Of a stretch of 64,000 nucleotides of DNA, positions 1-61,200 are shown one piece after another; within the stretch, counting starts at the first letter, position 1; each line of letters begins with the position of its first letter. Source of the DNA: Tricharina praecox (lineage: Eukaryota); assembly GCF_024521635.1 (NCBI RefSeq), contig NW_026250406.1:1-64000 (forward strand), read 5' to 3'. The notes below the pieces were generated by a model. That model made no database searches. It was not told the origin of the DNA and saw only the letters and a program-made list of their open reading frames with translations. The position numbers and the translations under genes are program-made.

Positions 1-1479
1 ACCCCCGAGATCCCTATCTTGACCCGAACTGTGTTTGGGCACCTAATCAGCCGAGCGTCCTGCGGCTATATTCTGATGTTATGATCGATGCAAATTCCTC
101 AAGACTCATCAACAGTTTGCCACATGTACCCATCCGGCACCAGAACAAGCGTCCGCGACGCGACCGAGAGGAATCCGCTCGACGCCACTGGAATAAGTGA
201 TGTCTGTTGCGAGTCGCCGCGCCGGAAAAGGGGCAGGCCAGATTGTCAGGGTGTCTCGGTTCTCAAATTTCTGACGCGAAATCGGCATCAGGCGCACCGA
301 AGGCGTCATAAGAAGACTTGACAGCCGATGAGGCCGAGCGCCTGAGACTGCGGCTGTCACGGCGATGGAGACTTGGACCCAGTAAACCATGGCGCCTTCG
401 CGAAGGGACAAACAGGGCGCTCAGTGGCGAGAGTGATGGCGTCTGGCAACGGGAGCGGTGAGAAGAAGAATGATAGAGAAGCTGACGTTCTATTCAGCTT
501 CGAGGGCGATCTGATATGGCTCCCTTCCTCTACCTACAACGTTCGACCCCACCCGATTGCCAGCGAGAGAACAGGAATAGGACACAAACGTCCTAGGAAA
601 CACACTAGAGCGACCTCCTGTCGAGTCCAGGAGGTCAGCGAGCCAGAGACACACTAAAGACCCTCCCCGTGGAATCCAGGAGGAGGCAAGCAGACTCACT
701 AGAGATCACACACCAGTAGAAGGAACAGAAAGTAAATTGACCAAGCACTGACTGTAACAAGTGCAGTAAGCGGCAAGGAAAAGAAAGAAAGAAAAGAGAA
801 CCAAAGTGCGGACCACCCCCCCGCTTTGAACAGTGCGCGGTGTCACTAGCGCGGCGACCCCTTCTACACCAGAGACGACGAGGCTAACACCTTCCACCGA
901 AGCAACACCGCCCAAACCGACAACAGCGATCAAAACAAAGACGAAATGTGCGAGCAAAACTAACGAGTCTACGCCGGCCGGACACAACACATACCCCTGC
1001 TCTTGCGTCTTGGCGACAAGCCTCTCAAAGGTCCGCGGCCAAGGCGAACAAGACGACAAGACGAGATATGGGTGTAAGTGTTGCCGAACAGATGTTTGAG
1101 ATGTCTAGGCGCCAAGCCATTACGCACTAGTGGACCGTGTTTCTGAGCTTACGTCGGTTCATAGATACGGTCCGCACCGATCACGCTCCCAGTCGAATGC
1201 CCCCGTCTTATGTCGTAGCCACCGCCACCGCGATAGCCATACACCGCCACACTTCCGTAGCGCCCGACCGGAACACCTTCGGCACCAATAACGCAACAAC
1301 GAATAAAAAGAAAAAGAAAAACTCGCTAACAAAGAAATCCAGAGCTTTGTTGGCCAATATTCTTGCTGCATGGCACTGAAGGACGAGCTGATGGAATACA
1401 CAGGTACGAAGCGGATTCCAGTGTGCCGGTCCCGCGGTTACACCATGTGCTCCACAGCTTACGGCTTCGACCATCTGTA

Positions 1480-2652
1480 ACGGCATCCATGTTACTTGGT
1501 GTGTTAAGGATTCGAAGAACATCCTTCAGGGGGCTTTCCCCGTAGTCGCTGGGTTTCTCGATGGCTAGCGAAAGCCAAAGACATGTCCCATCGGCGTCCT
1601 GGACGAGGTGGTCACGAAGACGTGCTCGTTCAAGCTCAGTGAGCCCGCACATGTGCCTAAGTTCTTCGGCTACGGAGTTAACGACAAGTTCGATGTCTGC
1701 ACCGATCGCAAGCGTTTCCGCCTCTGCTCTCAGTCTGATGATTGGAAGCCCTCTGAACCTTCTTTCGATCGAGCCACAGGAGCGGCTGGTGAGGAGGAAC
1801 TTGAGAGACGTGTCTCTTGTGGTGGGGATCGTGCGGTTTGCCGACACGGCATAACTCAGTGCCAAAGAGTCGATGAGCTTTTCTCGAGTCGATACTTCGC
1901 ATTCGTCCAAGCCGTCGAAGATAATGATCACATCGCCGCAGTCCGGGTCTGCTGTTGCGCTTGTGAAGATACGCCACAACGTGCCGATATCCTCCGTAAA
2001 GTTATCGCCCTTGCTTTCGAAGTCTTTGGTGGCATGTCGGATAAGGGACGGCTTCGCTGTGAAAAGCTGGTGCAGTAGAGCGGAGAGAGCGAACTCTGCT
2101 CTTCTCTGCTCTTCGTTGTCACCTTTGAAGAAGAAGTAGCAAACAGTAGCGGATGGTTCCGATTGACGATCTTCGAGCTCATCGACCAAGAACAAGGCCA
2201 ATACCGACTTCCCACATCCTGGATCCGCCGACACCCACGAAAGACTCGACCTTTGTTCCTGCAGCCACTGCCGATACTTCTCATGGCCGAGGAACCAGCC
2301 AAGGGTTCCTTCGACTCGTGAGGGATTCCGGCTCTTATAGGACTCGTAATCCGGAGTGTAGAGAGAGCGCAAGCATAGCGCTTCGGGGGCTGGAGCGTGA
2401 AGTCAGATCGACGTTATCGTATTTGCGATTCAATGGAGGCGCTTACTTTCGGACCTGCCAACGAACACCAGTTAGCGAATCGTGGTAAATGCCATCCAGC
2501 AGGACCATGCTTCAACAGAACATCCCCGGTACGTATATCGGAGAGGAACTTACTCGGGAGAACCCTGAAAAGCGTTGTCCACCGTTCAAAGTCGACCCTT
2601 TGAAACTGTTGTGTTGGGAGCGCTCGTAGTTCGCTTGGGGTCTGTCTGTCAT
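1480..2652 (-). pseudogene. Truncated/frameshifted NACHT (STAND, NLR-like) gene
   Basis: ORF 1326-2372 has RNPSRVEGTLGWFL..WL, P-loop SADPGCGKS, VCYFFF, Walker B IIIFDGLDEC, KFLLTSR and ADGTCLWLSL; similarity is lost after about 1480 (MDAV), with no sensor repeats. Upstream ATG at 2652 (MTDRPQANYERSQHNSF..) and two introns flanking an 8-nt exon (2447-2454). Joining needs a frameshift near 2580. Confidence 0.8.
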
Positions 2653-15411: not shown

Positions 15412-18400
15412 ATGTCTCCTTGGCCCCAATTAGAAAGGTTGAAGGCGCGTTGGTCACAGAAAGTGCGGTCGGGTCCGCGATCGGATGAGCACACCAGTGG
15501 CACCGGGAACAAGCAACAGATTCGAACCGGGAACGAGGATCACAAGCGGTCCGGAAACCAGCACCAGAATGTAGCCGGCGACGAGCACCAGCGTCCAACC
15601 GGGAATGAGCACGAGAACCATCTAGATGTTAGTAATCCACGGGCGGAGATCCGAATTGACTTACTTTTGCTAGAGGGACCCGGACAGTTGCTAACGGTGG
15701 TTCACACAGCCGATACTGGAGCGATTTGACTCCGACAGCATCTCTCAGAATGCTTCTGGCAGTCCGAACATCGGTCGAATCGCCAACATCGCCAACACCT
15801 CTACCGCAGACACCACCAGAGATAGCGTGAACGTGACGACAGACGCCTCACGCAGCTACAAGGACTCAAAGCACAACGAACTCGTGCACCCACAATTCGA
15901 TGGGCCCGTAGGAATAGGTACGTCAGCCTGTTATGTTCTACGACTAGGCATCATTTTGACTGATACGGACTGTCTCTATTTAGGAAATACAACGATCTAC
16001 TACATCCCGCCACCTGGCCTTGCCGCAAACGCTCAAACCCGGGAAGACTTGGAAACTTTTGGTACGTAGAGGAAGCTGTAATGCGATTTCAATAGCTTAC
16101 GTGGACCGTGTCACACAGCCGCTGTGTACTGCGCTCATGGCGCCGCATTCAACTCGCGGGGTTCGGATCACGAGCCTACATGCTTGGCAGAAACTCGAGT
16201 CGATCTCCTCGCCGACATAGTGAGCTGGTCAGACACGCCCGACAATGCGTGCATATTCTGGTTGAATGGAATGGCGGGTACTGGAAAGTCCACTATAGCG
16301 CGTACGGTCGCTCGCAACTGGGCAAAGAAGCAACGACTTGGTGCGAGTTTCTTTTTCTCCAAAGGTCAAGGTGACCGGGCCCATGCTTCCAAATTCTTCA
16401 CTACTCTCGCATACCAGCTTGCGTATTCGCAGCCCAGTCTTGCGTTTAGTATCCACAAGGCTATATGCGACCGACCCGATATCCCGCGGCAAACCCTACG
16501 AGAGCAGTGGAAACATCTCATCCTTGAACCGCTTTCTCGGCTGGGTGAAGGTGTATCCTCTCAACCACAGTCGTTGATGCTGGTCATTGATGCGTTGGAC
16601 GAATGCGATGACGAAGAAGACACCGGACTGATACTTCAAATCCTTTCCGAGGCAACTCTCCTCAAAAGCTCGGTGCGTTTGTTGGTATTCGTCACAAGCA
16701 GACCGGAAACCCCGATCCGCCACGGTTTCGTCAAAATACGGAAGGCTGTATATCAACACTTCATTCTCCATGAAATCCCCAACAACATAGTCGATGCCGA
16801 TATATCCAGTTTCCTCCACCACGAATTAAACGAAATCAGGCAATGTCGCCGGTACTTACCCGAACCTTGGCCCGACGAGCAAAGTGTGGGGCGTCTCGTG
16901 CGGAAAGCTGGGGGACTATTCATCTACGCTTCCACAGTATGCAGATTCATCAGGGATAAGGAGCGCTCTCCACAGAAATGTCTCGCCCTAGTATTGGACG
17001 ACAGCAATGAACACGGAACGTCGTCAACCTTGCGGCAACTCGATTTGATGTACCTGAAGATTATACGATACGCAGTCCAAGTTCGAGGTCAGGCGTCGTC
17101 GACCTCAGAAGAGCGACTTTCGCAACGGTTCAGGCAGATCGTCGGATCTATTGTGGTATCAAACGAAGCATTGACTGTTGGTGCCCTATCTGCTCTTTTA
17201 AACATGCAACCGTACGATGTGGACCGAACAGTAGAATCTCTGGGTTCTATATTGCGTTATCCCGAATTCGATGAAACCCCCATTAAGCTCCTACATCCGT
17301 CTTTCCGCGACTTCCTACTTGACAACCGGAGGTGCAACGATCCCCGGTTCAGCATCATTGCGGATAACGCACACAGGGAACTTGCGATGAGGTGCCTGCA
17401 GCTCATGTCACGCCATCTCAAGCAGGATGTGTGCTCCTTAAAGCTCCCTGGTAGCCTCATCGAGGAGATCGATCCTCGGATAGTGCAGCCTTGTCTTCCG
17501 GAAGAGGTTCAGTATGCCTGCAGGTACTGGGTCGATCATCTCCAGCGAAGTGAAACCATACTCCACGACAGCGAGCCACTTCACGACCAAGTGCATACTT
17601 TCCTCAAAGAACATTTCCTTCACTGGATGGAGGCACTGAGCCTGATGCGGAATATGCATGACGGCATTCTCATGGTCAAGGCCATTGCCTCCATGCTCAG
17701 GGTGAGTACTCCAGCCTGTTGATGTTCTGTTTTTCGGATTTGCCGTCGAGTACATTCAGCAGATTCCAGTGCATGGAATTTGCAGAAACTCGGAAGGCAA
17801 AAGTCGCCAAATCGAGGTTATCGGTGTATGATGAAAGCGGACTGTTCGTCAATGACCTTATCGCTCCAGCAGCGGAAGGTGTGACTGCTGCCACGGAATT
17901 TTGCTGACTTTACTTTAGCTGAAGCCTTCCAGTGCCAACTATTCGTTGCAAGCAATGGCTCATGACGCAGTCCGATTTATGCTACATTTCGGATCAATCA
18001 TCGAGATTGCACCTCTCCAACTGTATTCCTCAGCTCTGTCCTTTAGCCCGGGGCGGAGCTTACTGAAGGACCAATTTCGTCATGAAATCCCGGACTGGAT
18101 TGTGGAAGTGGCACTACCGGTTCCCCAGGATTGGGGCGCGTCGCTGCAGGTACTGGGAGGACATTCAGCCATGATCGGAGCGCTGGCTTTCTCGTTTGAC
18201 GGCAAGCTGCTGGCATCGGCATCGGGCGATAGAACCGTCCGGCTCTGGAATCCCGCGACGGGAACCTGCCGCGCCACTCTTGAGGGCCATTCAAAGGGTG
18301 TCAGTGCAGTGGCATTCTCGCCCGACGGCAAGCTGCTGGCATCGGCATCGGACGACAAAACCGTCCGGCTCTGGGATCCCGCGACGAGAACCTGCCGCGC

Positions 18401-20147
18401 CACTCTTGAGGGCCATTCGGATTGCGTCAATGCAGTGGCATTCTCGCCCGACGGCAAGCTGCTGGCATCGGCATCGGCTGACACAACCGTCCGGCTCTGG
18501 GATCCCGCGACGGGAACCTGCCGCGCCACTCTGGAGGGCCATTCAGGATGGGTCAGTGCAGTGGCATTCTCGCCCGACGGCAAGCTGCTGGCATCGGCAT
18601 CAGCTGACACAACCGTCCGGCTCTGGGATCCCGCGACGGGAACCTGCCGCGCCACTCTTGAGGGCCATTCGCGTTTGGTCAGTGCAGTGGCATTCTCGCC
18701 CGACGGCAAGCTGCTGGCATCGGCATCGGACGACGAAACCGTCCGGCTCTGGGATCCCGCGACGAGAACCTGCCGCGCCACTCTTGAGGGCCATTCGGAT
18801 TGGGTCAGGGCAGTGGCATTCTCGCCCGACGGCAAGCTGCTGGCATCGGCATCGGCTGACACAACCGTCCGGCTCTGGGATCCCGCGACGGGAACCTGCC
18901 GCGCCACTCTTGAGGGCCATTCGAAATGGGTCAGTGCAGTGGCATTCTCGCCCGACGGCAAGCTGCTGGCATCGGCATCTATTGACACAACCGTCCGGCT
19001 CTGGGATCCCGCGACGGGAACCTGCCGCGCCACTCTTGAGGGCCATTCGCAATGGGTCAGTGCAGTGGCATTCTCGCACGACGGCAAGCTGCTGGCATCG
19101 GCATCGTACGACACAACCGTCCGGCTCTGGGATCCCGCGACGGGAACCTGCCGCGCCACTCTTGAGGGCCATTCGCAATGTGTCAGTGCAGTGGCATTCT
19201 CGCACGACGGCAAGCTGCTGGCATCGGCATCGTACGACAAAACCGTCCGGCTCTGGGATCCCGCGACGGGAACCTGCCGCGCCACTCTTGAGGGCCATTC
19301 AAAGGGTGTCAGGGCAGTGGCATTCTCGCCCGACGGCAAGCTGCTGGCATCGGCATCGGCTGACACAACCGTCCGGCTCTGGGATCCCGCGACGGGAACC
19401 TGCCGCGCCACTCTTGAGGGTCATTCGGATTGGGTCAATGCAGTGGCATTCTCGCCCGACGGCAAGCTGCTGGCATCGGCATCTATTGACACAACCGTCC
19501 GGCTCTGGGATCCCGCGACGGGAACCTGCCGCGCCACTCTTGAGGGCCATTCAAAGGGTGTCAGGGCAGTGGCATTCTCGCCCGACGGCAAGCTGCTGGC
19601 ATCGGCATCGGCTGACACAACCGTCCGGCTCTGGGATCCCGCGACGGGAACCTGCCGCGCCACTCTTGAGGGTCATTCGGATTGGGTCAATGCAGTGGCA
19701 TTCTCGCCCGACGGCAAGCTGCTGGCATCGGCATCTATTGACACAACCGTCCGGCTCTGGGATCCCGCGACGGGAACCTGCCGCGCCACTCTTGAGGGCC
19801 ATTCGGATTTTGTCAGGGCTGTGGCATTCTCTTTTGATGGCAAGGGGCTCGTATTAACATTGGCCGATAAAGCTGCCAAGTTCTACGAAATTTCTGCACA
19901 GAATAGCAATTTGGAAGTGAAGCCGGGAGCGGTCTCGTATCCAGAGCTCATGTTGAGCGCAAGTAAAGACTGGATATACTCGGGCGGCCGCAGACTGCTT
20001 TACCTTCCCCATGACTATTTCACTTGCTGGTTCGCCGTCAAAAACAATACAATTGCTCTCGGGCAAAGCTCTGGGACAGTTTGTTTCCTTACCTTTGATT
20101 TGGAATTGGTTCCTTTCGGTGAGCTCTCCAAGGCGAATTTATTCTGA
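15412..20147 (+). CDS. NACHT-WD40 NLR-like protein (HET-E/NWD-like), gene A
   Basis: Spliced model with introns at about 15628-15709, 15918-15983, about 16063-16118 and 17702-17918. NACHT with CLAETRVDLL, WLNGMAGTGKSTIARTVA, LVIDALDEC, FVTSRPE, LHPSFRDFL, QYACRYW; then APLQLYSSAL and 14 WD40 repeats (last one degenerate); stop at 20147. Confidence 0.92.
15481..15624 (+). repeat. Six degenerate 24-bp coding repeats in exon 1 of gene A
   Basis: Translation: SDEHTSGT GNKQQIRT GNEDHKRS GNQHQNVA GDEHQRPT GNEHENHL. Confidence 0.75.
18153..19845 (+). repeat. 126-bp WD40 tandem array (13 near-identical units plus 1 degenerate)
   Basis: Unit LEGHSxxVxAVAFS[PH]DGKLLASASxDxTVRLWDPATGTCRAT, nearly invariant at the DNA level outside the x codons. 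Confidence 0.97.
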
Positions 20148-21453: not shown

Positions 21454-21484
<31 letters not shown>

Positions 21485-21599
21485 TATAAAGCTTTTCCAC
21501 TATCCTGCAGTCTCAAAACACCATTCATCAAACGCTACTCTCGAACTTAAGTATCCACCGTACATCCTTTCCGTTCAATCGAACCTCACACCGCAGAGC

Positions 21600-32463: not shown

Positions 32464-35400
32464 TTATGCAATCCCGTCCAGATCAAGTTTCACGAACCAA
32501 ACCCTACCTGATTGACACCCGAGAGCAACAACGTTATTGTATACTGCGAAAACGTGCGGCCGGAGATCAGAAGGAGGGAGAAGCAATTTTTGCTTTCCCA
32601 AGGTTACCCAGCCCCCACTCAAACTCAGTATACTCTGTGAACTCGTCCCCAGATTAAACCCAATATCAGTACCAGGAGCGACCTCCATGAGTGCTTCACA
32701 CCTGTTAAAATGCAGAACAATAGGAATGAATGGATTAGAGACCGCCACGGTGTTCACTGTTGAAAGGATTTCCTCGACATCGAAGCAGTGGACGGTATTG
32801 TCCCAAGATGTTACTAGAAGGAGCTTGCCATCGGGCGAGAATGCCACTGCCCTGACACCCTTTGAATGGCCCTCAAGAGTGGCGCGGCAGGTTCCCGTCG
32901 CGGGATCCCAGAGCCGGACGGTTGTGTCGTCCGATGCCGATGCCAGCAGCTTGCCGTCGGGCGAGAATGCCACTGCCCTGACCCAATCCGAATGACCCTC
33001 AAGAGTGGCGCGGCAGGTTCCCGTCGCGGGATCCCAGAGCCGGACGGTTTTGTCGTACGATGCCGATGCCAGCAGCTTGCCGTCAAACGAGAATGCCACT
33101 GCATTGACGCAATCCGAATGGCCCTCAAGAGTGGCGCGGCAGGTTCCCGTCGCGGGATCCCAGAGCCGGACGGTTTTGTCGTACGATGCCGATGCCAGCA
33201 GCTTGCCGTCGGGCGAGAATGCCACTGCATTGACGAAACGCGAATGGCCCTCAAGAGTGGCGCGGCAGGTTCCCGTCGCGGGATCCCAGAGCCGGACGGT
33301 TTCGTCGTACGATGCCGATGCCAGCAGCTTGCCGTCGTGTGAGAATGCCACTGCCCAGACCAAATCCGAATGACCCTCAAGAGTGGCGCGGCAGGTTCCC
33401 GTCGCGGGATCCCAGAGCCGGACGGTTTTGTCGTACGATGCCGATGCCAGCAGCTTGCCGTCGTGCGAGAATGCCACTGCACTGACACATTGCGAATGGC
33501 CCTCAAGAGTGGCGCGGCAGGTTCCCGTCGCGGGATCCCAGAGCCGGACGGTTGTGTCAGCCGATGCCGATGCCAGCAGCTTGCCGTCGTGCGAGAATGC
33601 CACTGCACTGACCCATTGCGAATGGCCCTCAAGAGTGGCGCGGCAGGTTCCCGTCGCGGGATCCCAGAGCCGGACGGTTCTGTCGTCCGATGCTGATGCC
33701 AGCAGCTTGCCGTCGTGCGAGAATGCCACTGCATTGACGCAATCCGAATGGCCCTCAAGAGTGGCGCGGCAGGTTCCCGTCGCGGGATCCCAGAGCCGGA
33801 CGGTTCTGTCGTCCGATGCTGATGCCAGCAGCTTGCCGTCGTGCGAGAATGCCACTGCATTGACGCAATCCGAATGGCCCTCAAGAGTGGCGCGGCAGGT
33901 TCCCGTCGCGGGATCCCAGAGCCGGACGGTTCTGTCGTTCGATGCTGATGCCAGCAGCTTGCCGTCGTGCGAGAATGCCACTGCACTGACCCATTGCGAA
34001 TGGCCCTCAAGAGTGGCGCGGCAGGTTCCCGTCGCGGGATCCCAGAGCCGGACGGTTGTGTCAGCCGATGCCGATGCCAGCAGCTTGCCGTCGTGCGAGA
34101 ATGCCACTGCACTGACCCATTTCGAATGGCCCTCAAGAGTGGCGCGGCAGGTTCCCGTCGCGGGATCCCAGAGCCGGACGGTTGTGTCAGCCGATGCCGA
34201 TGCCAGCAGCTTGCCGTCGGGCGAGAATGCCACTGCCCCGACCCTATCCCAATGACCCTCAAGAGTGGCGCGGCAGGTTCCCGTCGTGGGATCCCAGAGC
34301 CGGACGGTTTTGTCGGCCGATGCCGATGCCAGCAGCTTGCCGTCGTGCGAGAATGCCACTGCACTGACACCCCCTGAATGGCCCTCCAGTACCTGCATCA
34401 AGGAATCCCAGTCCTCAGGGACACCCGTAAGGTCTATTATCCAACTCGGGACACTGTCTGCAAAATGATTCCTGAGGATGGCTCCTGATGGGCTGAAAGG
34501 TAGAGCTGCACAGTATAGTTGGAGAGGCGCAATCTCGATGATCGCTCTGGTATTGAGAATGAATCGCACTGCGTCACGCGACATCGCGCGTAAGCTATGA
34601 TTGGCTTTGGGCTGGACGTCAAAGTCAGCATGTTTCGGAACAAGATTCACACCAATTTGCCTGTTGGAGGTAAGCCATCGTCGCTAAAGAGCGAAGCGTG
34701 TATCCACTCCAAATGCCCATCCGCTGAAACCAACGGTACTTTCGTGGATGCTATATACTGGAAGCCCACTTGCGACTGACGACTGACAGACGATGAAGGT
34801 CCAGAAACAGGGAACGCTCGAAAATATTCGGATGGCTCACCGTAAGCATTGAATCTAAAAGCTTAACCATGAGAACAGCGTCATGCATAATACCCATCAG
34901 ACTCCAAACCTCGAACAGGTGGAGAAGGTGTTGCTTGAGGAAAGCGTGGACCAGGTCGTGCAGTGTTCCGCCGTCGCATAGCGTGACGTTACTATGCCGA
35001 ATATGATCCACCCAGTAGCGGCACGCGTACTGCACCTCTTGGGGAAGACAACGCCGTATTGTCGAAGGATCCACTTCACTGGTAAGAGAACCCGGATGTC
35101 GTAAAGAGCATACGTCCTCCTTTAGAGATCTTGACATGAGCGTGAGACAGCTCAATGCAAGGTCCTTGTGAGCATCGTTTCCAACTATGCTGAAATGTGG
35201 ATCCTGACATCTCTGGTCGTCCAAGAGAAAGTCCCGGAACGACAGGTGCAGAAGCCGTATCGGAGATTCTTGACTTCCTGAAACCGAAAACGTCAATACA
35301 GAACTCAGTGAGTCCAATGTTTGCTCCACCTCCGTTAGTTGAGTGCCCAAGAGTTGTGCAAGAGCCCTAGCAGTCAAGGAGTCGGATAGTATCACAATCG

Positions 35401-38400
35401 AACCGACGATCCGCCTGAATCGTTGTAACAGTATCTGTTGCGTCTGGGGCTCACGGCCTTTGATAACCGCATGATCCAAGACCGTCGTATATATCAGGTC
35501 GAGTTGCTTTGTCGACGATCCGTCTTCCACACTTTCTTCCAATACCGAAGCGAGACGATCCTGAGGAACATTGTCCTTGCACCCAATGAATCGGCAGACC
35601 GTTGTAGCGTATATGAACAGTCCATCCGCTTTCTGGACGAGACGGTGGAGCTTTTCGCGATCTGGCCATTCATTCGACAACCGGCGCCGCTTCTGGATCC
35701 TGGATAACTCGTGGAGGAGGAAAACATATATATCTTGATCGATTATTGCGTTGGCAACATTGTGAAGGACAAACTCCTGCCGTGTAGCTTCCTGTATATC
35801 TTGGAACCCGTAGCGAACCGGGGTTTCTGGCCTACTGGTGACAAATATCCGCAATCGCACAGGGGTGAGAGATTTCGCCTGGGAGAGAAGTCCAAGGATC
35901 TGCTCAACATCTGCTTCATCATCGCATTCATCCAATGCATCGATAACAAGTATCAACGATTGCATTTGAGACGGCTGCGACAATGGTTCCAAGATCAGAT
36001 GTTTCCACTGCTCGCTCATGTTCTTCCGGGGGATGTCGGGGTAGGCGCATATAGCCTCGCGAACAGCAGGGGCAAGGCCGGACCGCGCCAGCTGGTAGGC
36101 GATTGTAGTGAAGAATCTCGAAGCACGCGCCAGATATCCTTCACCTCTCGAAAAGAAGAAACTCGCCCCGAGCCGTCTTTCACTAGCCCACTTGCCGGCG
36201 ACCGTACGAGCGATAGTAGACTTTCCAGTACCAGCCATTCCATTCAACCAGAAGATGCATGCACCATCCGAGGCCTCTGACCATTCCATAATTTTCTCCA
36301 GGAGGTCGACTCGCGTATATTCTAAGCATTTTGATTTGCCGTTCGAACCACACGAATCGAACGGGGCGTCGTTGGCGCAGTACTCGGCGGCTATTCACGC
36401 AAATCAGTCGATGAAAACCACAAGACTGTTTCCTAACATACCAAAACTTCTTAACATCTCTTCCTTTTGAGCATCTCTCCCGGAGTCAGGTTCTGGGGGG
36501 TGGTAATGGTTCGTATATGTATCTCCTGCAAACACTTTGTCAGCCAACGGCCCATTGAGTTGCCCGGTCCCGTCTAGAATAGAACGACGAACCAAATGTT
36601 ACACTCCCTTGGATTTTCGGGTAGTTCAACTCGTTGTGCTTCGCGTTTTTGTAAGCACGAGAGCTTCCCGTGAGAATATTGCTGATTTGTGTTGTCGTGT
36701 GCGAGCTGCTGTTCGAGCTGCAGCGGCTGGCTTGGTGACCGATGCTCGGAAGGTTGGACGGATTTTGTGAGGCTACTGCCTCGATATGAAACCCATCTTG
36801 CTCTACTACCATCTACACAAATCACCGTTAGCCGCCGTCAGGATCTTTGATATCGGGAATGCATGCTGACCACCACACCTCCTTGAAGGTTCTTCTGCTC
36901 GTTCCTGGAGGGATTCATTGAGGCTACTGCCTCGATATCGAACGCATCTTGCTCTACCATCATCTGCACAAATCACCGTTAGTCGCCGTCATGATCTTTG
37001 ATATCGGGAATGCATGCTGACCACCACCCCCCCCTGAAAGTTTTCCTGCTGTTTCCCGGATGGATTCGATAGTTCGTCACATGGCGAAACCGACTGCTCG
37101 TCTTCGGATCGGTGCGCCTGCATGTCGTTCCTTCTTTTCAGAACATTCCGGACAGATTCTGAAAGCCTTTCCCTGACTATCACGTAGTCATGGCCGCAGC
37201 TGTCGGGGAGCTCTACCGAGTGATCGACGTCGATCGTGACGTGCTGATGCTTGGCCTCGTTCGGTAGGCCACGGGTCGCTCCTTTCCGCGCGATAGCTCC
37301 AATCAATTCGCCACTTGCCATCCAGCCGACATCTGGTAGTGTGTTCACGGCTTCGGCGCCACCGATTTCGAAAAACGAGACGATTTGAAAACCATCGAGG
37401 TTCGATTTGGTCGCTCTTAAGAAACAATCGTAAGAGGACCTCCAGAATTCGCAGCCTTCCGAAAGGTTATGGATGACGTGTACATCATTCTGGTCCCGTA
37501 TCAATGTCCTCAAGCGTTGGGGGTCAACACCTCGGTCTGGCACTCCGAAGAAAAAGAGGCCGACACACAAGCTCAAGTTCGCTTGATCGCTATCGCCACC
37601 GACCGAGAGTCGAGATGCATCCGCGAGTGCCTGCAAACAATGAGCATCGATCGCGTCCACGGGAAGCGCCACCGTATTGGGTACCTGTTTGATCACCAAA
37701 CGCCCGAGGCTGTGGCCGATGAAGATTACAGGGCGGCCGCGTTCCTGCAGACATCCGTCAACTCTGGAGCCCGCGGTTGGGTTTCTGAGACACACACGTA
37801 CATTCGCTTCCGTCCGCGCTAGGCATATACTCTGCAAGAGGGATCTCGCATAGGTTTGGAGGGTAGGGATGGTGACAATGTTGTCCCGCAGACCCATGTC
37901 GTAGCCGAACGTGAGAACCCTCATGTGCTCTCCGATTTCGATCGGGAATGCCTCCCGTAGCCACATCCTCGGTTGGCCCCGTACGCTCCGTGATCCGTAT
38001 GCACGACCAGCGAGGCCCGCGACAGCGAAAACACTAGCAGTTCTTTTCAGCACAAACTTTACGAACGAACAGAGGGGGAGAGGGAGGGAGGTCCATACTT
38101 TACTGCGGGCTTTTGCGCGCCGAACAAGCTCGGAGTTCCGAGAAAGTAACTTGCTCCCGGGAAATAATCGGAAAGATTCGCAGGATTTCCTTTCGGAAAA
38201 CCAACGGTTGCCATGGCGCCGCTCAACGAGAGCACGAAACCATCGCTTCCGAGCATCATCTTCAAAAGGGTCTTCAACTCATCCTCCGTGACGCCCAGCG
38301 GAATGGAGCGAATTCGGAGTGTCCGGAAGCGAGTCGGCGGCTGGCGTGGCCGGTTCGAGTGCGATGCGGCACCCGCAGGCTCACGGACCGGTGCGCAGCG

Positions 38401-38430
38401 CCATAGATCAAGTCTCCAGAAGTCCGGCAT
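32464..38430 (-). CDS. SesB-like alpha/beta-hydrolase - linker - NACHT - WD40 NLR-like protein, gene B
   Basis: Multi-exon model that stays in frame: N-terminal TLRIRSIP..FLGTPSL, VFAVAGLAG, MWLRE, RVLTFGYD, RPVIFIGHSLGRLVIKQ|AL, FFFGVP (SesB/PGAP1-like). Introns 36964-37021 and 36813-36870 link it to the linker, and two more introns link to NACHT (WLNGMAGTGKSTIARTVA, LVIDALDEC). Intron 34612-34840 precedes 13 WD40 repeats; stop at 32464. The fusion is inferred from splice signals only. Confidence 0.85.
32815..34390 (-). repeat. 126-bp WD40 tandem array (13 units, last one degenerate)
   Basis: Same nucleotide unit as 18153-19845, on the opposite strand. Confidence 0.97.
36769..37070 (-). repeat. 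151-bp tandem duplication comprising one 93-nt exon and one 58-nt intron
   Basis: gaggctactgcctcgatat..aaatcaccgttag.cgccgtca.gatctttgatatcgggaatgcatgctgaccacca is present at 36769 and 36920. Confidence 0.9.
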
Positions 38431-44400: not shown

Positions 44401-44479
44401 GTGATGGATGAGGAAGTGATGGATGAGGAAGTGATGGATGAGAAAGTGATGGATGAGGAAGTGATCGAGGAGGAAGTGA
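44401..44479. repeat. 15-bp tandem repeat (GTGATGGATGAGGAA x5) inside a purine-rich low-complexity tract (about 43880-44560)
   Basis: Directly visible. Confidence 0.85.
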
Positions 44480-44969
44480 AGGATGGGGAAGAAATGTAAA
44501 AGCTGTGGGTACCGGTGGGAGGATGACATAGTGATAGAGGAGACGTTGGCGGAAGGAAGCGAATGTGGTTAGTAGTAGGAATCAACGTTGATGGGCATGG
44601 TGGTTCGGCCGAATAAGGAGGAAATGCTCCATTTATAAGTCGAAGGCTATTCACTCGAGCTGGAAGCCTAATGAGCGGTAAGGTATCGTTCTACCAACGG
44701 ATGGCCGAAGAGAGTGGTGGAGCGACGTTGCATTTACTGACAATCGCCAGTTTACACCACAACGCCAAATCAGGGTTCTGTCCATTAAACACATTGAGTA
44801 TCGACAGCCAAATTGAGTGTAAAAGACCAATTTGACTATTGTAAACTGGCCGCAGTTACTTACAACCGCCGATTGACTCGGCTTCGCCCAAATAAAAGTT
44901 ACAACTTATCAAAACATGGTGATTTATGGGCAGAGGCCTGAATTGCCATTGCGATTGAGCTGCACTTTG

Positions 44970-54100: not shown

Positions 54101-55235
54101 GGCGGACCAACGTTTGGCCGCCTCCACCACCAGGTACATACTCTACGAGTACCTACTGAGGGACGCGAAGGAAGAGGCGGCTTGGCGTCATCGGTGAGCA
54201 CCGGAGAGAGGAGACATTGGTGAGACCTAGTGGGACCGATGTGCTATGCTGGTGGGACCCGATGCAGACCTGATCCTGCCGTTAAACGTTAAATTGTTTG
54301 TTGTCACTCTATCTGTTCTTCTTGTTCATGGGTCGGTCTCTGGTCTTCATCATCGACCGAGAATTCTAGTTCATTTGATCATGTTTTTGTTCCTCACCCG
54401 TGTTTGGGCCTCTCCGCACCCAAGTAGGAGGTAGTTGCACAAGCATGATGCAACTTCGTCTCTTTCCCGGTGTTCTGTGGTATGAAAGACCCGACTGCAA
54501 CCGCGGACCGATCAACCAACCCCGACACTGCCGAAGGAAGAGATCGTCCGCACCCTTGGCCACCGGCATGCGAAGCTGGCCTCGTGGAGTTAGACAAGTA
54601 AGTATGATACCTACCGTCGACGTTCTCCTTCGAGCGGCGAACGGTTCAAAGTACAAAGTGATGGCTGATGTGAGACACGCAGGACCTTGGCGCTATCGAC
54701 AGAGCCACTCCAAGCGAATCGTCAGTTCTGGCCGTCGCGAAAACATAAACAGATGGAGTATAGGTAGGTGTAGAAGCACAATGCACGGTTGTACGCGGCT
54801 TCGGTTTTTACCCAATTGTCGAAGGTCAACTTCGTTGTTGGTGGCGACGCTGGTCCGTATCGATAGAGTGGTCGACATTGATGTGCGTTTCTATTGGCAA
54901 CACCGCTCTGTATCGAGGTGTGACTGACTTATGGTTTCATAGAACACGATTGGCCGCAAACCTTCGGCCGCATACTTCGCTGAGGCATTCCCGGCTCAGT
55001 AAAAAAACCACAGGCCCCGCAACCGTCACCCACCAGTACGTTCACTATCTTCACCGTCTCACTCCCACTTTCAGCACGCATCGCCTTCGATATCCTCTGA
55101 CTTAGGAACGCCTTCTGAAACCTAGCCGTGATCAGACGAAAACACAAGATTCTTGAGGTGGATACCTATATCTCCAGCTTCGTTTTTTTTGGCCCGGTGT
55201 TCGGCTAACACATAACCCCAACGCCCTGCAATACC

Positions 55236-58200
55236 ATGTCTAGTGGCGCTGATATCAACGCTGGAGACACCGCCCACAACGCCAACACGATGAACACCGC
55301 TACGCCAAATACTCGTGCCTACAATGCCTCCAAGCACAACGAATTCAATGAACCGGTTTTCCATGGGCAGACAACATTCGGTACGCCACTGCGCTGTGTT
55401 CCGATGTGATATCGCGTGGGGCTGACCTTGGGTAGGAGATACGACCAACTACCACTTCGGCAGAAAAAAAGACGCACAGACACGCGAGTTCTTGGAGAAT
55501 CTGGGTGAGCGATCCCGTCAGAAATGCAGGTTAGCATGAGTACCGATGGCTGACTTCCGATTTCTCTGGCAACAGTAGCTACGAAGGTCGATTGGTCCAT
55601 CCTTTCGCGTCAGTTGTCGGTTGTCGACCAAGGCACCACCTACCGATCCACGTACGTACCTGTCGACCAAAACTCGCCGGATTTCCCTTGGGTCACTAAG
55701 AACATCGACTTCACGAAATGGGAGTCGGACGAGAAGCAGCAAGCTCTGTGGTTATCTGGAGCCTGTGACGCCGGTACGAAGGAGGTGTCTTCCCAAGTCA
55801 TATACAACGCCAAGAAGAAAGCCACTCAGTCGAACGGTTGTGTCTTGTACTTTTTCTGCGCAACCGCAACAGAATCTCGGGATTCGATTGCCACCGTCTT
55901 CGTCCATACGCTGCTCCATCAGATTGTCGGTTTTTCGGGCGATGAGACGGCTCAAGCTATCACCACAACTTTCCTTACGTCACTCTTGGACGGTCATATC
56001 CGGCGAAGTTTGTCGGGCTTCAAGAAGGACGATCCACTGGTTAAAACTGTGGAAAGGATCCTAGACGCTCCCTCATATGACCTTCACATCGCGTTGATCA
56101 ATGCGCTTGCGAAAGCGGGACCCCAGCATCTATCGCTCATCATCGATGGGATCAGCATTGCGGCAATGAAGGGTGATGTGTTCGTTCGGAACGTTTCCCT
56201 CCTGGTGAACCATATGATAGCTGCGGGGGCTGTGGGGGCTGTGGGGGCTACAAGGTTCAAGGCTTTACTCACAAGCTCTCAGTACTCTGAGCTCAAGGGA
56301 TTTCTAGGCGATCTACCGTCCATCCAGTTTCGCCAAGAGCGAGAAGGTTGTTTGTCCATGATTCCAGAGACTGAACAGCAGCTGATTAGCCTGGCAACCC
56401 AGAGATTCTTCGTCTTCTGCAAGACCACGACGGTACACGATATGGAAATATCACCCGACAGCATGGCGGTTCGCTTGAGTGGTTATGGCAGAATGCAGAA
56501 TACCGGAATTGGGAGAAATCGACGACGTCAAAGCTCCTATACATCGAGGGGAAGCCTGGTAGTGGAAAAAGCACTCTTGTGAAATATTTCGAGAGCAACC
56601 TAGCAGAGAAGGTACCAGATTCGACGTCAGCTACTGTGGCCTACTACTTCTACACCCTTCGAGGCACCACCGAGGAGGCCAAGCATGCGAACATGCTGCG
56701 GGCCATTCTGCACAGTATTCTTACGCAGGACGAGTCCGTTTTCCATCATTTCCAGACCGCATTCCGGCACTTTCGATATGCCAAAGAATGGCCATACGAA
56801 TCTCTCAAATCGATCCTATCCTCTCTCGTGGATCATATTTCACCGAAACCGCTCTACCTTATTCTTGACGCAATGGACGAATCCATGGAAGAAGACAGAA
56901 CCGAGATTGTGGAGCTACTCTGCAAGCTGTGTTCAGCAAAAGGCTTTCGTGTAAAGGCGTTTGTTGCCAGTCGCCCGGTTGCCGACCTCAATCTCCTGTT
57001 CACAGAATGGCGTCATTCGATGCATGTCATCAGGCTTCAGCACGAGAACTACGGCGATATCTGCACGTTTACCGATACTTTTCTGACGAAACTCGGGTTA
57101 TCCGAACAGATCCTTCTGGATACTGGTAAATATATCAAAGCCAATGCCGAGGGTGTTTTTGTGTGGGTTCACCTGGTTAAAGCCGAATTAACCCGTTTGC
57201 GATCAACTGGCCTAAGCGATATGCAATTGAGTCATCAACTCAAGTGTCTTCCTCGCAAACTGGAAGAGTTCTACAAGCATATGCTCGACAGGCTGGAGCG
57301 GGAGGGCAGAGATGATGAGGTTCAGGACGGAATAACGCTCGTTCAGTTCGTTCTATTCTCCTCTCGTCCCCTGAATGTTGTCGAACTGCAACATGTTCTT
57401 GCTTTCCAGGCTATGGACTGCGATTCCTCGGTCACTCCTCCACATATTAAGTTCCAGCGACACCTGAGCGACGCCATCGAGGCGAGGATTGCACACTGCG
57501 GCGGCAACTTCTTAGACATTACGGGTAATCCATTGTCGAAATGCAACACGACCGGCGTTTAATGATCTGTGCAGCAGATGGAACCGTTCAACTGATGCAT
57601 CAAACCGCCCGCGAGTTTTTTCTCCAAATTAAACAACATAAACCCGATTCAAAATTCTATCTGAGCAGCCAGAAAACCCATGGCGCAATCGCTACCACTT
57701 CGGTTCAGTATCTGATGCTCTGTTTGGGAAACCCAGAAACCTCCATGAAAGATACCCTGTCAGATACCAAGGGTTGGGGTTCGAACGAGTTTCAACGTTA
57801 TGCCAAATACCTCAACGAGTGGCCGTTGATCACTTACGCAATATTCAATGTCTACTATCATCTAGGGTTGTGCGATACGGGGAAAAGGATTTTACATCTC
57901 GTTAAGAAACTTATCAAAAAGCTGACTAGCATTCCAGGGACCGCATCTCTTGGGAGATTGGTGGCTAGACAACATAAAAAGAAGAAATCTATCCTCACTT
58001 CCATACTAGACATGGCAAGCAGGACGCCTCTACGAAAAATTCCCCCTGAGAGTGCCTCCGACGACTTCGTCCACAGGGCTCTAGATGCTGCCGCCGAGTT
58101 AGATATGCTCCGAGTCTTCGAGTTGCTGCGGTCTACCCACATGCATACACTGGACGAGGTTCTACTGATTTCATGTGTCAGGAAGCGGCTGACAGCTGCC

Positions 58201-61200
58201 TCCAGAGAACTGATCAAAGGAGTCGAAAATATCGACGGTGTAGACGTGGCGGGGAAGTCGGCACTACATCACGCAGTCGAGAACGGGGACCTGACAATAG
58301 CTAGACTGCTGAAAGATGCACAGGCCTCTTCGGGGCTCCGCGATAATCATGGGAACACGCCCGTAGACATAGCCGTTAAGTTGTAGTGAGCTCTCCCTGA
58401 TTACCAGACAAAAGATCGAGTGGCCGGCGTTTAATGTGATTAAACAGGGCTAATTTGACGTTCCAACAGTGGGTGGGTGTCTCCACGGGACCACGAAGCT
58501 CTAACTAATAGTGTCATCACCGATGCCTAATTTCCCGAATCCCAGCTTGTGAGTCTGCAAGCCAATGAAATTTGGTGCCACAATAGGTTTACGTCCCTAA
58601 CGGTTTGCTACAGCTAGTGAGGCTCCCCGCAATCCTTATGTGGCTCCCACGACAGACGAACGATCCTGACGGTTTGGTGCAGCATGTGAGGCTCCCCGCA
58701 ATCCTTATGTGGCTCCCACGACAGACGAACGATCCTGACGGTTTGGTGCAGCCGGTGAGGCTCCCCGCAATCCTTATGTGGCTCCCACGACAGACGAACG
58801 ATCCTGACGGTGTGATACAGGTTGTGAGGCTCCCCGCAATCCTTATGTGGCTCCCACGACAGACGAACGATCCTGACGGTTTGGTGCAGGGAGTGAGGCT
58901 CCCCGCAATCCTTATGTGGCTCCCACGACAGACGAACGATCCTGACGGTGTGATACAGCTTGTGAGGCTCCCCGCAATCCTTATGTGGCTCCCACGACAG
59001 ACGAACGATCCTGACGGTGTGATACAGCGAGTGAGGCTCCCCGCAATCCTTATGTGGCTCCCACGACAGACGAACGATCCTGACGGTTTGGTGCAGCATG
59101 TGAGGCTCCCCGCAATCCTTATGAGGCTCCCACGACAGACGAACGATCCTGACGGTGTGATACAGGTTGTGAGGCTCCCCGCAATCCTTATGTGGCTCCC
59201 ACGACAGACGAACGATCCTGACGGTTTGGTGCAGGGAGTGAGGCTCCCCGCAATCCTTATGTGGCTCCCACGACAGACGAACGATCCTGACGGTGTGATA
59301 CAGCGAGTGAGGCTCCCCGCAATCCTTATGTGGCTCCCACGACAGACGAACGATCCTGACGGTGTGATACAGGTTGTGAGGCTCCCCGCAATCCTTATGT
59401 GGCTCCCACGACAGACGAACGATCCTGACGGTTTGGTGCAGGGAGTGAGGCTCCCCGCAATCCTTATGTGGCTCCCACGACAGACGAACGATCCTGACGG
59501 TGTGATACAGCTTGTGAGGCTCCCCGCAATCCTTATGTGGCTCCCACGACAGACGAACGATCCTGACGGTTTGGTGCAGCGAGTGAGGCTCCCCGCAATC
59601 CTTATGTGGCTCCCACGACAGACGAACGATCCTGACGGTTTGGTGCAGCCGGTGAGGCTCCCCGCAATCCTTATGTGGCTCCCACGACAGACGAACGATC
59701 CTGACGGTGTGATACAGCGAGTGAGGCTCCCCGCAATCCTTATGTGGCTCCCACGACAGACGAACGATCCTGACGGTTTGGTGCAGCATGTGAGGCTCCC
59801 CGCAATCCTTATGTGGCTCCCACGACAGACGAACGATCCTGACGGTGTGATACAGCGAGTGAGGCTCCCCGCAATCCTTATGTGGCTCCCACGACAGACG
59901 AACGATCCTGACGGTTTGGTGCAGCATGTGAGGCTCCCCGCAATCCTTATGAGGCTCCCACGACAGACGAACGATCCTGACGGTGTGATACAGGTTGTGA
60001 GGCTCCCCGCAATCCTTATGTGGCTCCCACGACAGACGAACGATCCTGACGGTTTGGTGCAGCCGGTGAGGCTCCCCGCAATCCTTATGTGGCTCCCACG
60101 ACAGACGAACGATCCTGACGGTTTGGTGCAGCCGGTGAGGCTCCCCGCAATCCTTATGTGGCTCCCACGACAGACGAACGATCCTGACGGTTTGGTGCAG
60201 CGGGTGAGGCTCCCCGCAATCCTTATGTGGCTCCCACGACAGACGAACGATCCTGACGGTTTGGTGCAGCGAGTGAGGCTCCCCGCAATCCTTATGTGGC
60301 TCCCACGACAGACGAACGATCCTGACGGTTTGGTGCAGCCGGTGAGGCTCCCCGCAATCCTTATGTGGCTCCCACGACAGACGAACGATCCTGACGGTGT
60401 GATACAGCGAGTGAGGCTCCCCGCAATCCTTATGTGGCTCCCACGACAGACGAACGATCCTGACGGTTTGGTGCAGCCGGTGAGGCTCCCCGCAATCCTT
60501 ATGTGGCTCCCACGACAGACGAACGATCCTGACGGTTTGGTGCAGCGGGTGAGGCTCCCCGCAATCCTTATGTGGCTCCCACGACAGACGAACGATCCTG
60601 ACGGTTTGGTGCAGCCGGTGAGGCTCCCCGCAATCCTTATGTGGCTCCCACGACAGACGAACGATCCTGACGGTGTGATACAGCCTGTGAGGCTCCCCGC
60701 AATCCTTATGTGGCTCCCACGACAGACGAACGATCCTGACGGTTTGGTGCAGCATGTGAGGCTCCCCGCAATCCTTATGTGGCTCCCACGACAGACGAAC
60801 GATCCTGACGGTTTGGTGCAGCATGTGATGCTCCCCGCAATCCTTATGTGGCTTCTACGACAGACGCGTGATCCTAACTGTTTGGTATAGCTTGTTAGCC
60901 TTCCCGCAAATGATAGGTGCTTCCATGACAGACGGGCAATCCTAACAGTTTGGTGCAGGGAGTGAGGCTCCCCGCAATCCTTATGTGGCTCCCACGACAG
61001 ACGAACGATCCTGACGGTTTGGTGCAGCCAGTCAGTCCTCCGCAAACGACGTGTGCCCCACCAGATTTACGTGCCTGACGGTTCGGTATAGCAAAAGGTA
61101 ACTCCCAGCAAATGAAGTATGGCTCCCACGATTGATGTACATGCCTGACGGTTTGGTACAGCAAGATGTAAACTCCCAGCAAATCATGTCTGCTGCCAAT

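What the first reader, a model, noticed from the sequence alone, without database searches (positions are those of the whole stretch)
55314..55460. Shared short motif upstream of NACHT in four NLR-like genes: candidate amyloid-signalling motif
SEEN after splicing: gene C TRAYNASKHNEFNEPVFHGQTTFG|DTTNYH (55314-55460); gene A SRSYKDSKHNELVHPQFDGPVGIG|NTTIYY (15848-16003); gene B SRAYKNAKHNELNYPKIQGSVTFG|DTYTNHY (about 36505-36665, minus); pseudogene QANYERSQHNSFKGSTLNGG (about 2580-2637, minus). In genes A, B and C a phase-1 intron splits the same Gly codon and a second intron follows the next short exon, although the downstream NACHT/sensor parts differ (WD40 versus ANK). KNOWN: fungal NLRs lacking folded effector domains often carry 20-30 aa N/G/aromatic-rich amyloid motifs (HET-s R0, sigma, PP) that template effectors such as HeLo, HeLo-like or SesB. 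INFERENCE: this may be such a motif. I cannot assign it to a named class.
Basis: partly seen in the sequence, partly recalled or inferred. Interest (0 to 1): 0.75.

Follow-up and report, generated by a model that had tools for sequence, protein, structure and literature searches.

The report
Shared leader motif on truffle-relative NLRs
Several immune-receptor-like (NLR) genes of the cup fungus Tricharina praecox and its relatives start with the same short conserved peptide, which sits where fungal receptors carry prion-like signalling tags, but no partner protein carrying the tag could be found.

Summary
Genes A, B and C carry a homologous motif, consensus SR[AT]Y[NK]x[SA][KN]HNE[LF]xHxx[FIV]xGPVx[FI]G|[DN]TTxYY. 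It is split at one Gly codon by a phase-1 intron, and a short second exon follows. Names on the two matching database proteins place the window in Tricharina praecox (Pezizales). The fourth copy is a weak but supported divergent member.

The motif is the conserved island of a longer, apparently disordered N/S/T-rich leader. It also occurs in Trichophaea hybrida and in 27 metagenome contigs. The leader precedes three receptor types: NACHT-WD40, degenerate-NACHT + NACHT-ANK, and NB-ARC-TPR. It is therefore a portable N-terminal module and not part of the NACHT fold.

In gene B the motif is internal. Spliced contigs join it to a roughly 470-aa upstream region.

It matches no named amyloid class. 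HET-s and sigma were tested with profiles, PP and PUASM by inspection. No effector-side copy was found in the 64-kb window, in 152 kb of related contigs, or among 22 database relatives.

Amyloid-type signalling therefore remains plausible by position and composition (about 0.4), but its defining partner criterion was tested and not met. I read it as a new family of receptor-side NLR leader motif of moderate interest.

The parts
55236..55380 (+). Gene C exon holding the motif core. The core NTRAYNASKHNEFNEPVFHGQTTF(G) spans 55308-55380, and the exon ends on the first base of the split Gly codon.
   Evidence: joint 55379/55435 (cut +1) in contigs of runs X1 and X2
55381..55435 (+). Gene C phase-1 intron inside the Gly codon (GT..AG, 55 nt).
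55436..55504 (+). Gene C short second exon, (G)DTTNYHFGRKKDAQTREFLENL. It is followed by intron 55505-55575.
55158..55243 (+). Intron in the 5' region of gene C, seen in one X1 contig. Splicing it removes the ATG at 55236. The first in-frame Met is then the one of MNTATPNTRAY, which puts the motif at about residue 7.
55576..58383 (+). Rest of gene C as far as studied. It comprises a degenerate NACHT-like stretch (to 56579, P-loop position reads GACDAGTKEV), a canonical NACHT ORF (56390-57559) and ANK repeats (57529-58383).
15412..15627 (+). Gene A first exon (MSPWPQ... to ...NEHENHLD), the start of the leader.
15710..15917 (+). Gene A leader and motif exon. The core ASRSYKDSKHNELVHPQFDGPVGI(G) spans 15845-15917.
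15918..15983 (+). Gene A phase-1 intron in the Gly codon. It is 66 nt, in frame and free of stops.
   Evidence: one stop-free piece spans 15695-16066
15984..16061 (+). Gene A short exon, (G)NTTIYYIPPPGLAANAQTREDLETF. It is followed by intron 16062-16118.
16119..20147 (+). Gene A NACHT (Pfam match in ORF 16082-17719) and WD40 repeats (17919-20144).
36593..36812 (-). Gene B leader and motif exon. The core SSRAYKNAKHNELNYPKIQGSVTF(G) spans 36665-36593.
   Evidence: joints
36526..36592 (-). Gene B phase-1 intron in the Gly codon (67 nt).
36442..36525 (-). Gene B short exon, (G)DTYTNHYHPPEPDSGRDAQKEEMLRSF. It is followed by intron 36391-36441.
36871..36963 (-). Gene B extra leader exon (MMVEQDAFDIEAVASMNPSRNEQKNLQGGVV). 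It is a tandem duplicate, exon plus intron, of the start of the next exon.
37022..38430 (-). Gene B N-terminal region of about 470 aa, in four exons, containing GHSLG. One X1 contig joins it to the leader.
   Evidence: No family match.
32464..36390 (-). Gene B NACHT (34754-36390) and WD40 repeats (32467-34683).
2554..2652 (-). Fourth, divergent copy at the start of an ORF: MTDRPQANYERSQHNSFKGSTLNGGQRFSGFSR. It has no Gly intron.
1329..2402 (-). NACHT ORF downstream of the fourth copy. No repeat domain follows, and a simple splice from the motif exon does not keep the frame, so it is possibly a pseudogene.

Best explanation
The motif is the conserved core of a portable N-terminal leader used by NLR-type receptors of at least two genera of Pyronemataceae.

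Layout of the leader:
- A variable, N/S/T-rich and apparently disordered stretch. It is absent in P0008, about 25 aa in gene C, about 100-120 aa in gene A and in the Trichophaea proteins, and follows a further N-terminal region in gene B.
- A core of about 26 aa, then [DN]TTxYY and a Pro-rich turn.
- The nucleotide-binding domain.

The module has been attached to different receptor bodies. In 23 of 33 instances it keeps the same phase-1 intron in the Gly codon, which fits exon shuffling.

Most likely mechanism (inferred, not shown): it is the receptor-side output element. When the receptor oligomerises, several leaders come together and the motif self-associates, possibly as an amyloid-like beta-arch stack. 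That assembly is the signal. In gene B it would act on the region fused upstream in cis. In the other genes it would act on other carriers of the motif, or on a partner not yet found.

Shown: sequence, splicing, conservation, modularity and position. Inferred: self-association and signalling.
For: Position
- Extreme N-terminus in P0008 (residues 5-52).
- Gene C: residues about 25-55, or about 7-37 in the isoform lacking ATG 55236.
- The fourth copy starts at residue 7.

Modularity
- The same leader precedes NACHT-WD40 (P0001, P0002, P0008; L015, L020).
- It precedes degenerate NACHT + NACHT-ANK (gene C, P0013-15; L019, L025).
- It precedes NB-ARC-TPR (P0018, P0017 partial; L013).

Conservation
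- Between the two genera the 25-aa core averages 47% identity (21 pairs).
- The 25 aa upstream average 24% (14 pairs) and the 25 aa downstream 13% (21 pairs, ungapped).
- Y, H, N and E are invariant in 18 rows.

Intron
- The Gly codon reads G|GT in 23 of 33 pattern-matched instances, including NB-ARC-type and ANK-type genes. One of the 33 is a chance match to the pattern.

Expression
- Spliced contigs of two runs cover genes B and C.

Fold
- The Pfam NOD match starts only in the third coding block, so the motif lies outside the NOD.
- The leader has pLDDT below 50 in an AlphaFold2 model of P0005, built on a shallow 9-row alignment.

Literature
- Short conserved N-terminal motifs of this length are the known alternative to folded effector domains in fungal NLRs.
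- Several such classes have many receptor copies and no effector copy.
- A few combine an effector domain with the motif in one N-terminus.
- Source: PMC9815663, sections 19, 24 and 46 and Table 1, read.
Against: - No effector-side copy was found anywhere.
- There is no match to the Pfam HET-s, NACHT_sigma or Ses_B models at E <= 10, and none to HET-s or RHIM chains in the PDB at E <= 10.
- The most conserved part, [SA][KN]HNE[LF], is a contiguous polar and charged run. That looks as much like a docking motif for a folded partner as like a beta-strand.
- Pro is common inside the motif.
- No structure prediction gave a confident model.
- Amyloid-propensity programs (ArchCandy, the BASS grammars, ASMscan) were not available.
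- In gene B the motif is internal, and in gene A it lies about 118 residues from the start.
Confidence: 0.4

Rival explanations
1. It is a non-amyloid short linear motif. The disordered leader presents a docking, regulatory or processing site (Y..[SA][KN]HNE[LF]) that is bound by a folded partner, or by the receptor's own body for auto-inhibition.
For: The invariant residues are contiguous and polar. The flanks are low-complexity and poorly conserved. The leader was predicted without confident structure. No second protein class carries the same motif, which is what one expects if the partner recognises the motif instead of sharing it.
Against: No candidate partner was identified. I know of no precedent among fungal NLRs (recalled, not searched). 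The hydrophobic-x-hydrophobic-G-[DN] pattern and the aromatic tail are also conserved, which a minimal docking site would not need.
Confidence: 0.3
2. It is a classical two-component amyloid signalling motif of the NWD2/HET-S type. A cell-death or lipase effector elsewhere in the genome carries a diverged copy at its C-terminus.
For: N-terminal position, length and G/N/aromatic content. For the HRAM-related class NLR12 only 4 of 110 receptor-side motifs had a neighbouring partner, and partners encoded by non-adjacent genes are suspected (PMC9815663 Table 1 and section 24).
Against: There was no further copy in the window around four receptor genes and none in 27 loci, 152 kb. Eight of the 9 hits and all 14 are receptor N-termini or fragments of them; the ninth hit, P0010, is unrelated low-complexity sequence. 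The whole genomes could not be searched, and one protein search failed its own positive control. Absence is therefore not proven.
Confidence: 0.15
3. It has no function of its own. The shared leader is a passenger inherited through recent duplication or gene conversion among clustered NLR paralogues.
For: The four copies lie in one 64-kb cluster. Many metagenome copies are near-identical paralogues whose intron 5' ends are also similar.
Against: The core is conserved across two genera while its flanks have diverged. It is kept on three unrelated receptor bodies.
Confidence: 0.1
4. It is an N-terminal structural element of the NACHT domain.
For: The second exon (AQTRE.LE.F) is shared by the two NACHT-type groups. 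AlphaFold2 predicts it as the start of a helix, at pLDDT of about 56.
Against: The core also precedes NB-ARC-TPR receptors, where the AQTRE.LE.F part is absent (P0018; L013). The Pfam NPHP3_N and NACHT matches begin downstream of both motif exons.
Confidence: 0.03

Closest known systems
Amyloid-like motifs in short NLR N-termini that have no effector counterpart. These are classes NLR05/08/22/29/44 of Agaricomycetes and the unassigned NLR17, NLR19 (Tuber), NLR20 and NLR34 of Wojciechowski et al. 2022 (PMC9815663; sections 19, 24, 46 and Table 1 read).
   Same: [quoted passage not shown] Many receptor genes per genome carry it and no C-terminal effector copy is known. NLR19 is likewise restricted to a genus of Pezizales.
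   Different: Tricharina and Trichophaea are absent from the part of their table that could be searched (the file is cut). Their profile HMMs and logos could not be read, so identity with NLR19 or NLR34 is untested. Here the motif is split by a conserved intron and occurs on three receptor architectures.
HET-s / NWD2 and the HRAM motifs.
   Same: N-terminal receptor position and a length of about 21-30 aa. A hydrophobic-x-hydrophobic-G-[ND] element resembles the LGN/IGN turn of HET-s (a recalled resemblance, not a test).
   Different: No match to Pfam HET-s_218-289 or to HET-s chains in the PDB. No HeLo or HeLo-like partner was found. The spacing of the conserved Asn and Gly differs (my recall of the HET-s repeat).
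Sigma motif of the SesA/SesB/HET-eN cluster of Nectria haematococca (PMC5485727, section 5 read).
   Same: It lies 50-99 residues into NLR N-termini and can occur together with an effector domain in one N-terminus (PMC9815663, section 19). Gene B combines the motif with a GHSLG-containing N-terminal region that I recall as SesB-like.
   Different: No match to Pfam NACHT_sigma or Ses_B. There is no three-fold submotif repetition, and an internal repeat was tested and rejected. No SesA or SesB partner carrying the motif was found.
Internal amyloid-like motifs in NLRs, proposed as scaffolds of the oligomer (PMC9815663, section 46 read).
   Same: Gene B carries the motif between an N-terminal region and the NACHT domain.
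   Different: That proposal concerns a basidiomycete (Fibularhizoctonia) and another motif family. It is a hypothesis there too.

Membership tests
Fungal amyloid signalling motifs (receptor/effector pairs) | Short motif (about 20-40 aa) at the N-terminal end of an NLR that has no other N-terminal domain. | tested here: met
   Met for gene C, P0008 (residues 5-52) and the fourth copy. Not met for gene B, where it is internal. In gene A it lies about 118 residues in.
Fungal amyloid signalling motifs (receptor/effector pairs) | A homologous motif at the C-terminus of an effector protein, typically encoded by a neighbouring gene (PMC12261475 introduction passage; PMC5485727 abstract). | tested here: not met
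   No further hit in the window. None in 27 loci, 152 kb. The 8 family members among the 9 hits, and all 14 hits, are receptor N-termini or fragments. Whole genomes were not searchable.
Fungal amyloid signalling motifs (receptor/effector pairs) | Forms amyloid or propagates as a prion; predicted beta-arch (ArchCandy, BASS grammar). | not testable with these tools
   None of these programs is available here, and there is no bench work.
HET-s / HRAM | Match to the family profile (Pfam HET-s_218-289) or to solved HET-s chains. | tested here: not met
   No Pfam hit at E <= 10 on the spliced N-termini of A and B, the first exon of C and the fourth copy. No HET-s chain at E <= 10 with profile A4.
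Sigma motif | Match to Pfam NACHT_sigma or Ses_B. That these two families are in the library is recalled. | tested here: not met
   No hit at E <= 10.
PP motif / RHIM | G-hydrophobic-Q-hydrophobic-G signature (PMC5485727 section 5; PMC9815663 section 21). | tested here: not met
   No conserved Q in the 18-row alignment. No RHIM chain found in the PDB search.
PUASM | Pattern FxGxGxQxxGxGxF, associated with PNP_UDP (PMC9815663 section 24). | tested here: not met
   The pattern is absent from the alignment. No PNP_UDP protein was seen among the Pfam hits of the ORFs scanned from the window and ten loci.
NLR19 / NLR34 amyloid-like motifs of Wojciechowski et al. 2022 | Match to their profile HMMs (S7 Data). 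| not testable with these tools
   The HMM and FASTA supplements cannot be read here. The cluster alignment was not found in the held part of S2 Data.
NACHT N-terminal subdomain (Pfam NPHP3_N) | The motif lies within the domain match and occurs only with NACHT. | tested here: not met
   The matches start downstream of both motif exons. The motif also precedes NB-ARC-TPR.
SesB-like hydrolase (N-terminal region of gene B) | Alpha/beta-hydrolase fold with a GxSxG nucleophile. | tested here: inconclusive
   GHSLG is present. There is no Pfam, NCBIfam or PDB sequence match. The single-sequence AlphaFold2 model is unusable, with mean pLDDT 32.8. The label is recalled.

The most novel reading that the evidence does not exclude
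The leader is a receptor-only, cross-seeding assembly tag. Because the same motif heads NACHT-WD40, NACHT-ANK and NB-ARC-TPR receptors, activation of one sensor would nucleate co-assembly of the N-termini of other sensor types. That would form a shared signalling hub, an NLR network held together by an amyloid-like tag. Catalytic output would come from members such as gene B that carry an enzyme-like region in cis, with no separate effector gene.
Probability: 0.12. Interest if true: 0.75.

Novelty: new variant of a known kind. Interest (0 to 1): 0.45.

Why it matters
Most fungal NLRs with short N-termini have no known output mechanism. A motif family confined to one lineage of Pezizales offers a defined peptide of about 26-37 aa on which to test two questions:
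- Can receptor-side motifs without effector partners assemble?
- How are output modules shuffled among immune-type receptors?

The family has useful properties for this. It is present on three receptor architectures, is split by a conserved phase-1 intron, and is once fused behind an enzyme-like region.

If the motif turns out to be a docking site and not an amyloid, that would be a new output mode for fungal NLRs. If it is only a conserved linker, the finding is of local interest.

Tried and rejected
Searches that were unavailable or failed
- The whole genome is not held.
- Cluster look-up and the protein atlas were unavailable.
- The search for related loci with A4 found no conserved stretch. 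A5 worked.
A5 was too short for the search for homologous proteins, so a core-only profile search of the named protein collection was never run.
- The last protein search (P0018 residues 88-131, shorter proteins) returned no candidate. P0017 (337 aa) and P0004 (308 aa) should have qualified, so I treat the result as uninformative.

Ideas tested and dropped
- Two weak in-window look-alikes (63075-63194 and 44798-44938, E about 0.6-1.8) have no coding context and were dropped.
- An internal pseudo-repeat ('SIGRIAN' block against 'FGDTT' block) was rejected. The summed score was 67 against a shuffle mean of 78.7, p = 0.81.
- NACHT-subdomain reading: rejected.

Structure predictions
- Complex prediction with four copies of the 37-aa core gave no verdict.
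- The AlphaFold2 model of P0005 with a 9-row alignment had mean pLDDT 36.8.
- The AlphaFold2 model of the gene B N-terminal ORF, without an alignment, had mean pLDDT 32.8.
- Neither model was good enough for a fold search, and none was run.

Sequencing runs
- No RNA holder was listed. Runs X1 and X2 are 'RNA?' by guess only.

Literature
- Tricharina and Trichophaea were not found in the held parts of the PMC9815663 supplements.
- The NLR19/NLR34 HMMs and logos were not readable.
- A full-text search for 'amyloid' + 'NLR' + 'Pezizomycetes' returned 2 papers, and neither listed title or abstract start concerns such a motif; I did not open them. The 16 papers naming Tricharina praecox were seen as a listing of 10 only.
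- The search of earlier findings gave nothing on this genome.
Full report
**What is there**

Joining the exons by coordinates gives these peptides:
- Gene C: MSSGADINAGDTAHNANTMNTATPNTRAYNASKHNEFNEPVFHGQTTFG|DTTNYHFGRKKDAQTREFLENL|VATK...
- Gene A: ...ASRSYKDSKHNELVHPQFDGPVGIG|NTTIYYIPPPGLAANAQTREDLETF|AAVYC...
- Gene B: ...SSRAYKNAKHNELNYPKIQGSVTFG|DTYTNHYHPPEPDSGRDAQKEEMLRSF|AAEYC...

In all three genes the first bar is a phase-1 intron inside the Gly codon, and a second intron follows a 23-28-codon exon.

A protein search returned two named proteins of Tricharina praecox that are encoded here:
- P0001 (1437 aa) is gene A.
- P0002 (1775 aa) is gene B.
- Both contain exactly these spliced sequences.

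T. praecox belongs to the Pezizales, family Pyronemataceae.

Contigs of two public runs join across these places. The kind of the runs is not on record and the tool guesses RNA.
- The Gly intron and the following intron of gene B are joined in both runs.
- Five further gene B introns are joined.
- The Gly intron of gene C is joined in both runs. The following intron is joined in X2 only.

Pfam places A and B as NACHT + WD40. Gene C is a degenerate NACHT-like stretch, a canonical NACHT and ANK repeats.

**The fourth copy**

- With a profile of A, B and C alone, the stretch at 2554-2652 (minus) scored 2.6 bits, E = 17. That is no better than noise.
- An 18-row family profile built mostly from other species, and not containing this stretch, scored it at 16.2 bits, E = 8.6e-4. 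It was the next hit after A, B and C among 2384 six-frame pieces.
- It starts an ORF and lies upstream of a NACHT ORF.
- I accept it as a diverged member.
- It lacks the Gly intron.

**The motif is part of a longer leader and has relatives**

An exhaustive HMMER search of 1.84 billion representatives gave 9 hits at E <= 1e-3:
- Eight are family members. One (P0010) is unrelated low-complexity sequence.
- P0008 is a 1430-aa NACHT-WD40 protein with the motif at residues 5-52.

A profile search of the named collection gave 14 hits, all family members:
- 2 are from T. praecox.
- 7 are from Trichophaea hybrida, of the same family.
- 5 are unnamed.

A metagenome scan gave 27 loci.

The alignment shows this order:
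- an optional basic start;
- ...EQxxLQGG / ALERDGF / ASQNxS...SIG[RH];
- an N/T/S-rich stretch;
- the core SR[AT]Y[NK]x[SA][KN]HNE[LF]xHxx[FIV]xGPVx[FI]G;
- [DN]TTxYY and a Pro-rich turn.

Y, H, N and E are invariant in 18 rows.

Mean identity between the two genera:

| Segment | Identity | Pairs |
|---|---|---|
| 25-aa core | 47% | 21 |
| 25 aa upstream | 24% | 14 |
| 25 aa downstream (ungapped) | 13% | 21 |

**It is a portable module and not part of the NACHT domain**

The same leader precedes three receptor types:
- NACHT-WD40: P0001, P0002, P0008, L015, L020.
- Degenerate NACHT + NACHT-ANK: gene C, P0013-15, L019, L025.
- NB-ARC-TPR: P0018, partial P0017, L013.

That part therefore belongs with the NACHT lead-in, while the core is independent of receptor type.

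The Gly codon reads G|GT in 23 of 33 pattern-matched instances, across all three receptor types. One of the 33 is a chance match to the pattern. The exceptions are a GPVTIN subgroup, truncated contigs, degenerate copies and the fourth copy. A conserved intron phase at the module boundary fits spread by exon shuffling. That is an inference.

**Gene B is not effector-less**

- The deposited model and one 3285-nt contig of run X1 join a roughly 470-aa upstream region, a duplicated leader exon, the motif exons and the NACHT exon through seven spliced introns.
- The upstream region contains GHSLG, and I recall such a pattern from SesB-like hydrolase domains.
- Pfam, NCBIfam and PDB sequence searches gave no match, and a single-sequence fold was unusable. 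The label is therefore untested.

**Tests of the amyloid reading**

By sequence the motif belongs to no named class:
- There is no Pfam hit at E <= 10 for HET-s, NACHT_sigma or Ses_B.
- There is no HET-s or RHIM chain in the PDB at E <= 10.
- The PP signature GxQxG and the PUASM pattern are absent (against PMC5485727 section 5 and PMC9815663 sections 21 and 24).

The defining partner criterion was not met:
- The window holds four receptor copies and no further copy.
- The 27 loci (152 kb) hold copies only upstream of nucleotide-binding domains.
- No database relative is an effector.

These searches are incomplete:
- No whole genome was available.
- One search failed its positive control.
- A core-only profile search could not be run.

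Structure prediction gave no confident model of the leader.

What remains in favour is the position, the length, the G/N/aromatic content, and the precedents in PMC9815663 (sections 19 and 46). Those precedents are receptor-only amyloid-like motifs and motifs combined with effector domains.

**Verdict**

This is a real, lineage-restricted, modular NLR leader motif in the slot where amyloid signalling motifs sit, but the partner test failed and amyloid formation is untested.
- My odds are about 0.4 for an oligomerisation-driven self-assembly motif, 0.15 for a classical pair with a hidden effector, 0.3 for a non-amyloid docking or regulatory motif, 0.1 for a passenger and 0.03 for a NACHT element. 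These are rough and overlap: the classical pair would be one special form of the self-assembly reading.
- Its relation to the unassigned Tuber motif NLR19 of Wojciechowski et al. could not be tested, because their HMMs and logos were unreadable here.

Noticed in passing
55576-57559 (+); also P0013-P0015, L019, L025: Gene C and its Trichophaea and metagenome relatives carry two NACHT-like modules in tandem. The first has a degenerate P-loop position (GACDAGTKEV here, APPGH.TTEV in Trichophaea) and the second is canonical and followed by ANK repeats. The arrangement is conserved across genera.
   Followed up: partly
36813-37050 (-): Tandem duplication of an exon-plus-intron unit in the gene B leader (MMVEQDAFDIEAVASMNPS...LQGGVV, then MVVEQDGFHIEAVASQNPS...). 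Both copies are spliced into the contigs of runs X1 and X2.
   Followed up: partly
15918-15983 (+); L001-L012, L020: The Gly-codon intron of gene A is 66 nt, in frame and free of stops. In many metagenome paralogues the intron is also open, and its 5' part is similar (read through as SP.CSVLRRGN..ADTQRFCL). A retained-intron isoform that inserts about 22 residues into the motif is conceivable.
   Followed up: no
21147-22505 (+); L013:7445-8530 (-): An Abhydrolase_3/BD-FAE-type hydrolase gene lies about 1 kb from a motif-bearing NLR in both places. In the window it is next to gene A (NACHT-WD40). In metagenome contig L013 it is next to an NB-ARC-TPR gene. The two hydrolases are 52% identical (E = 1e-47) and neither carries the motif. 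This could be synteny or a functional pairing.
   Followed up: partly
55158-55243 (+): One contig splices an intron that removes the ATG at 55236 of gene C. A non-canonical joint 55156/55223 is also reported at high depth. Gene C therefore has at least two 5' forms.
   Followed up: partly
17919-20144 (+) and 32467-34683 (-): The WD40 arrays of genes A and B consist of 42-residue repeats that are nearly identical to one another, within and between the two genes. From recall, this is as in the hypervariable HET-E/NWD family.
   Followed up: no
11035-13480 (+): ANK-repeat ORFs in several frames lie upstream of gene A. They are probably the 3' part of a further NLR-like gene.
   Followed up: no
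44001-46300: Strong GC skew (0.25) and AT skew (0.19) with no long ORF. Contig depth in run X1 is very high at 44932-46259, with adapter-like loose ends. This is unexplained.
   Followed up: no
P0005, P0013, P0014 (Trichophaea hybrida): Several leaders begin with a strongly basic run (for example MPPKKRGKKGKR...). It may be a nuclear-localisation-like signal. It is absent from the T. praecox copies.
   Followed up: no
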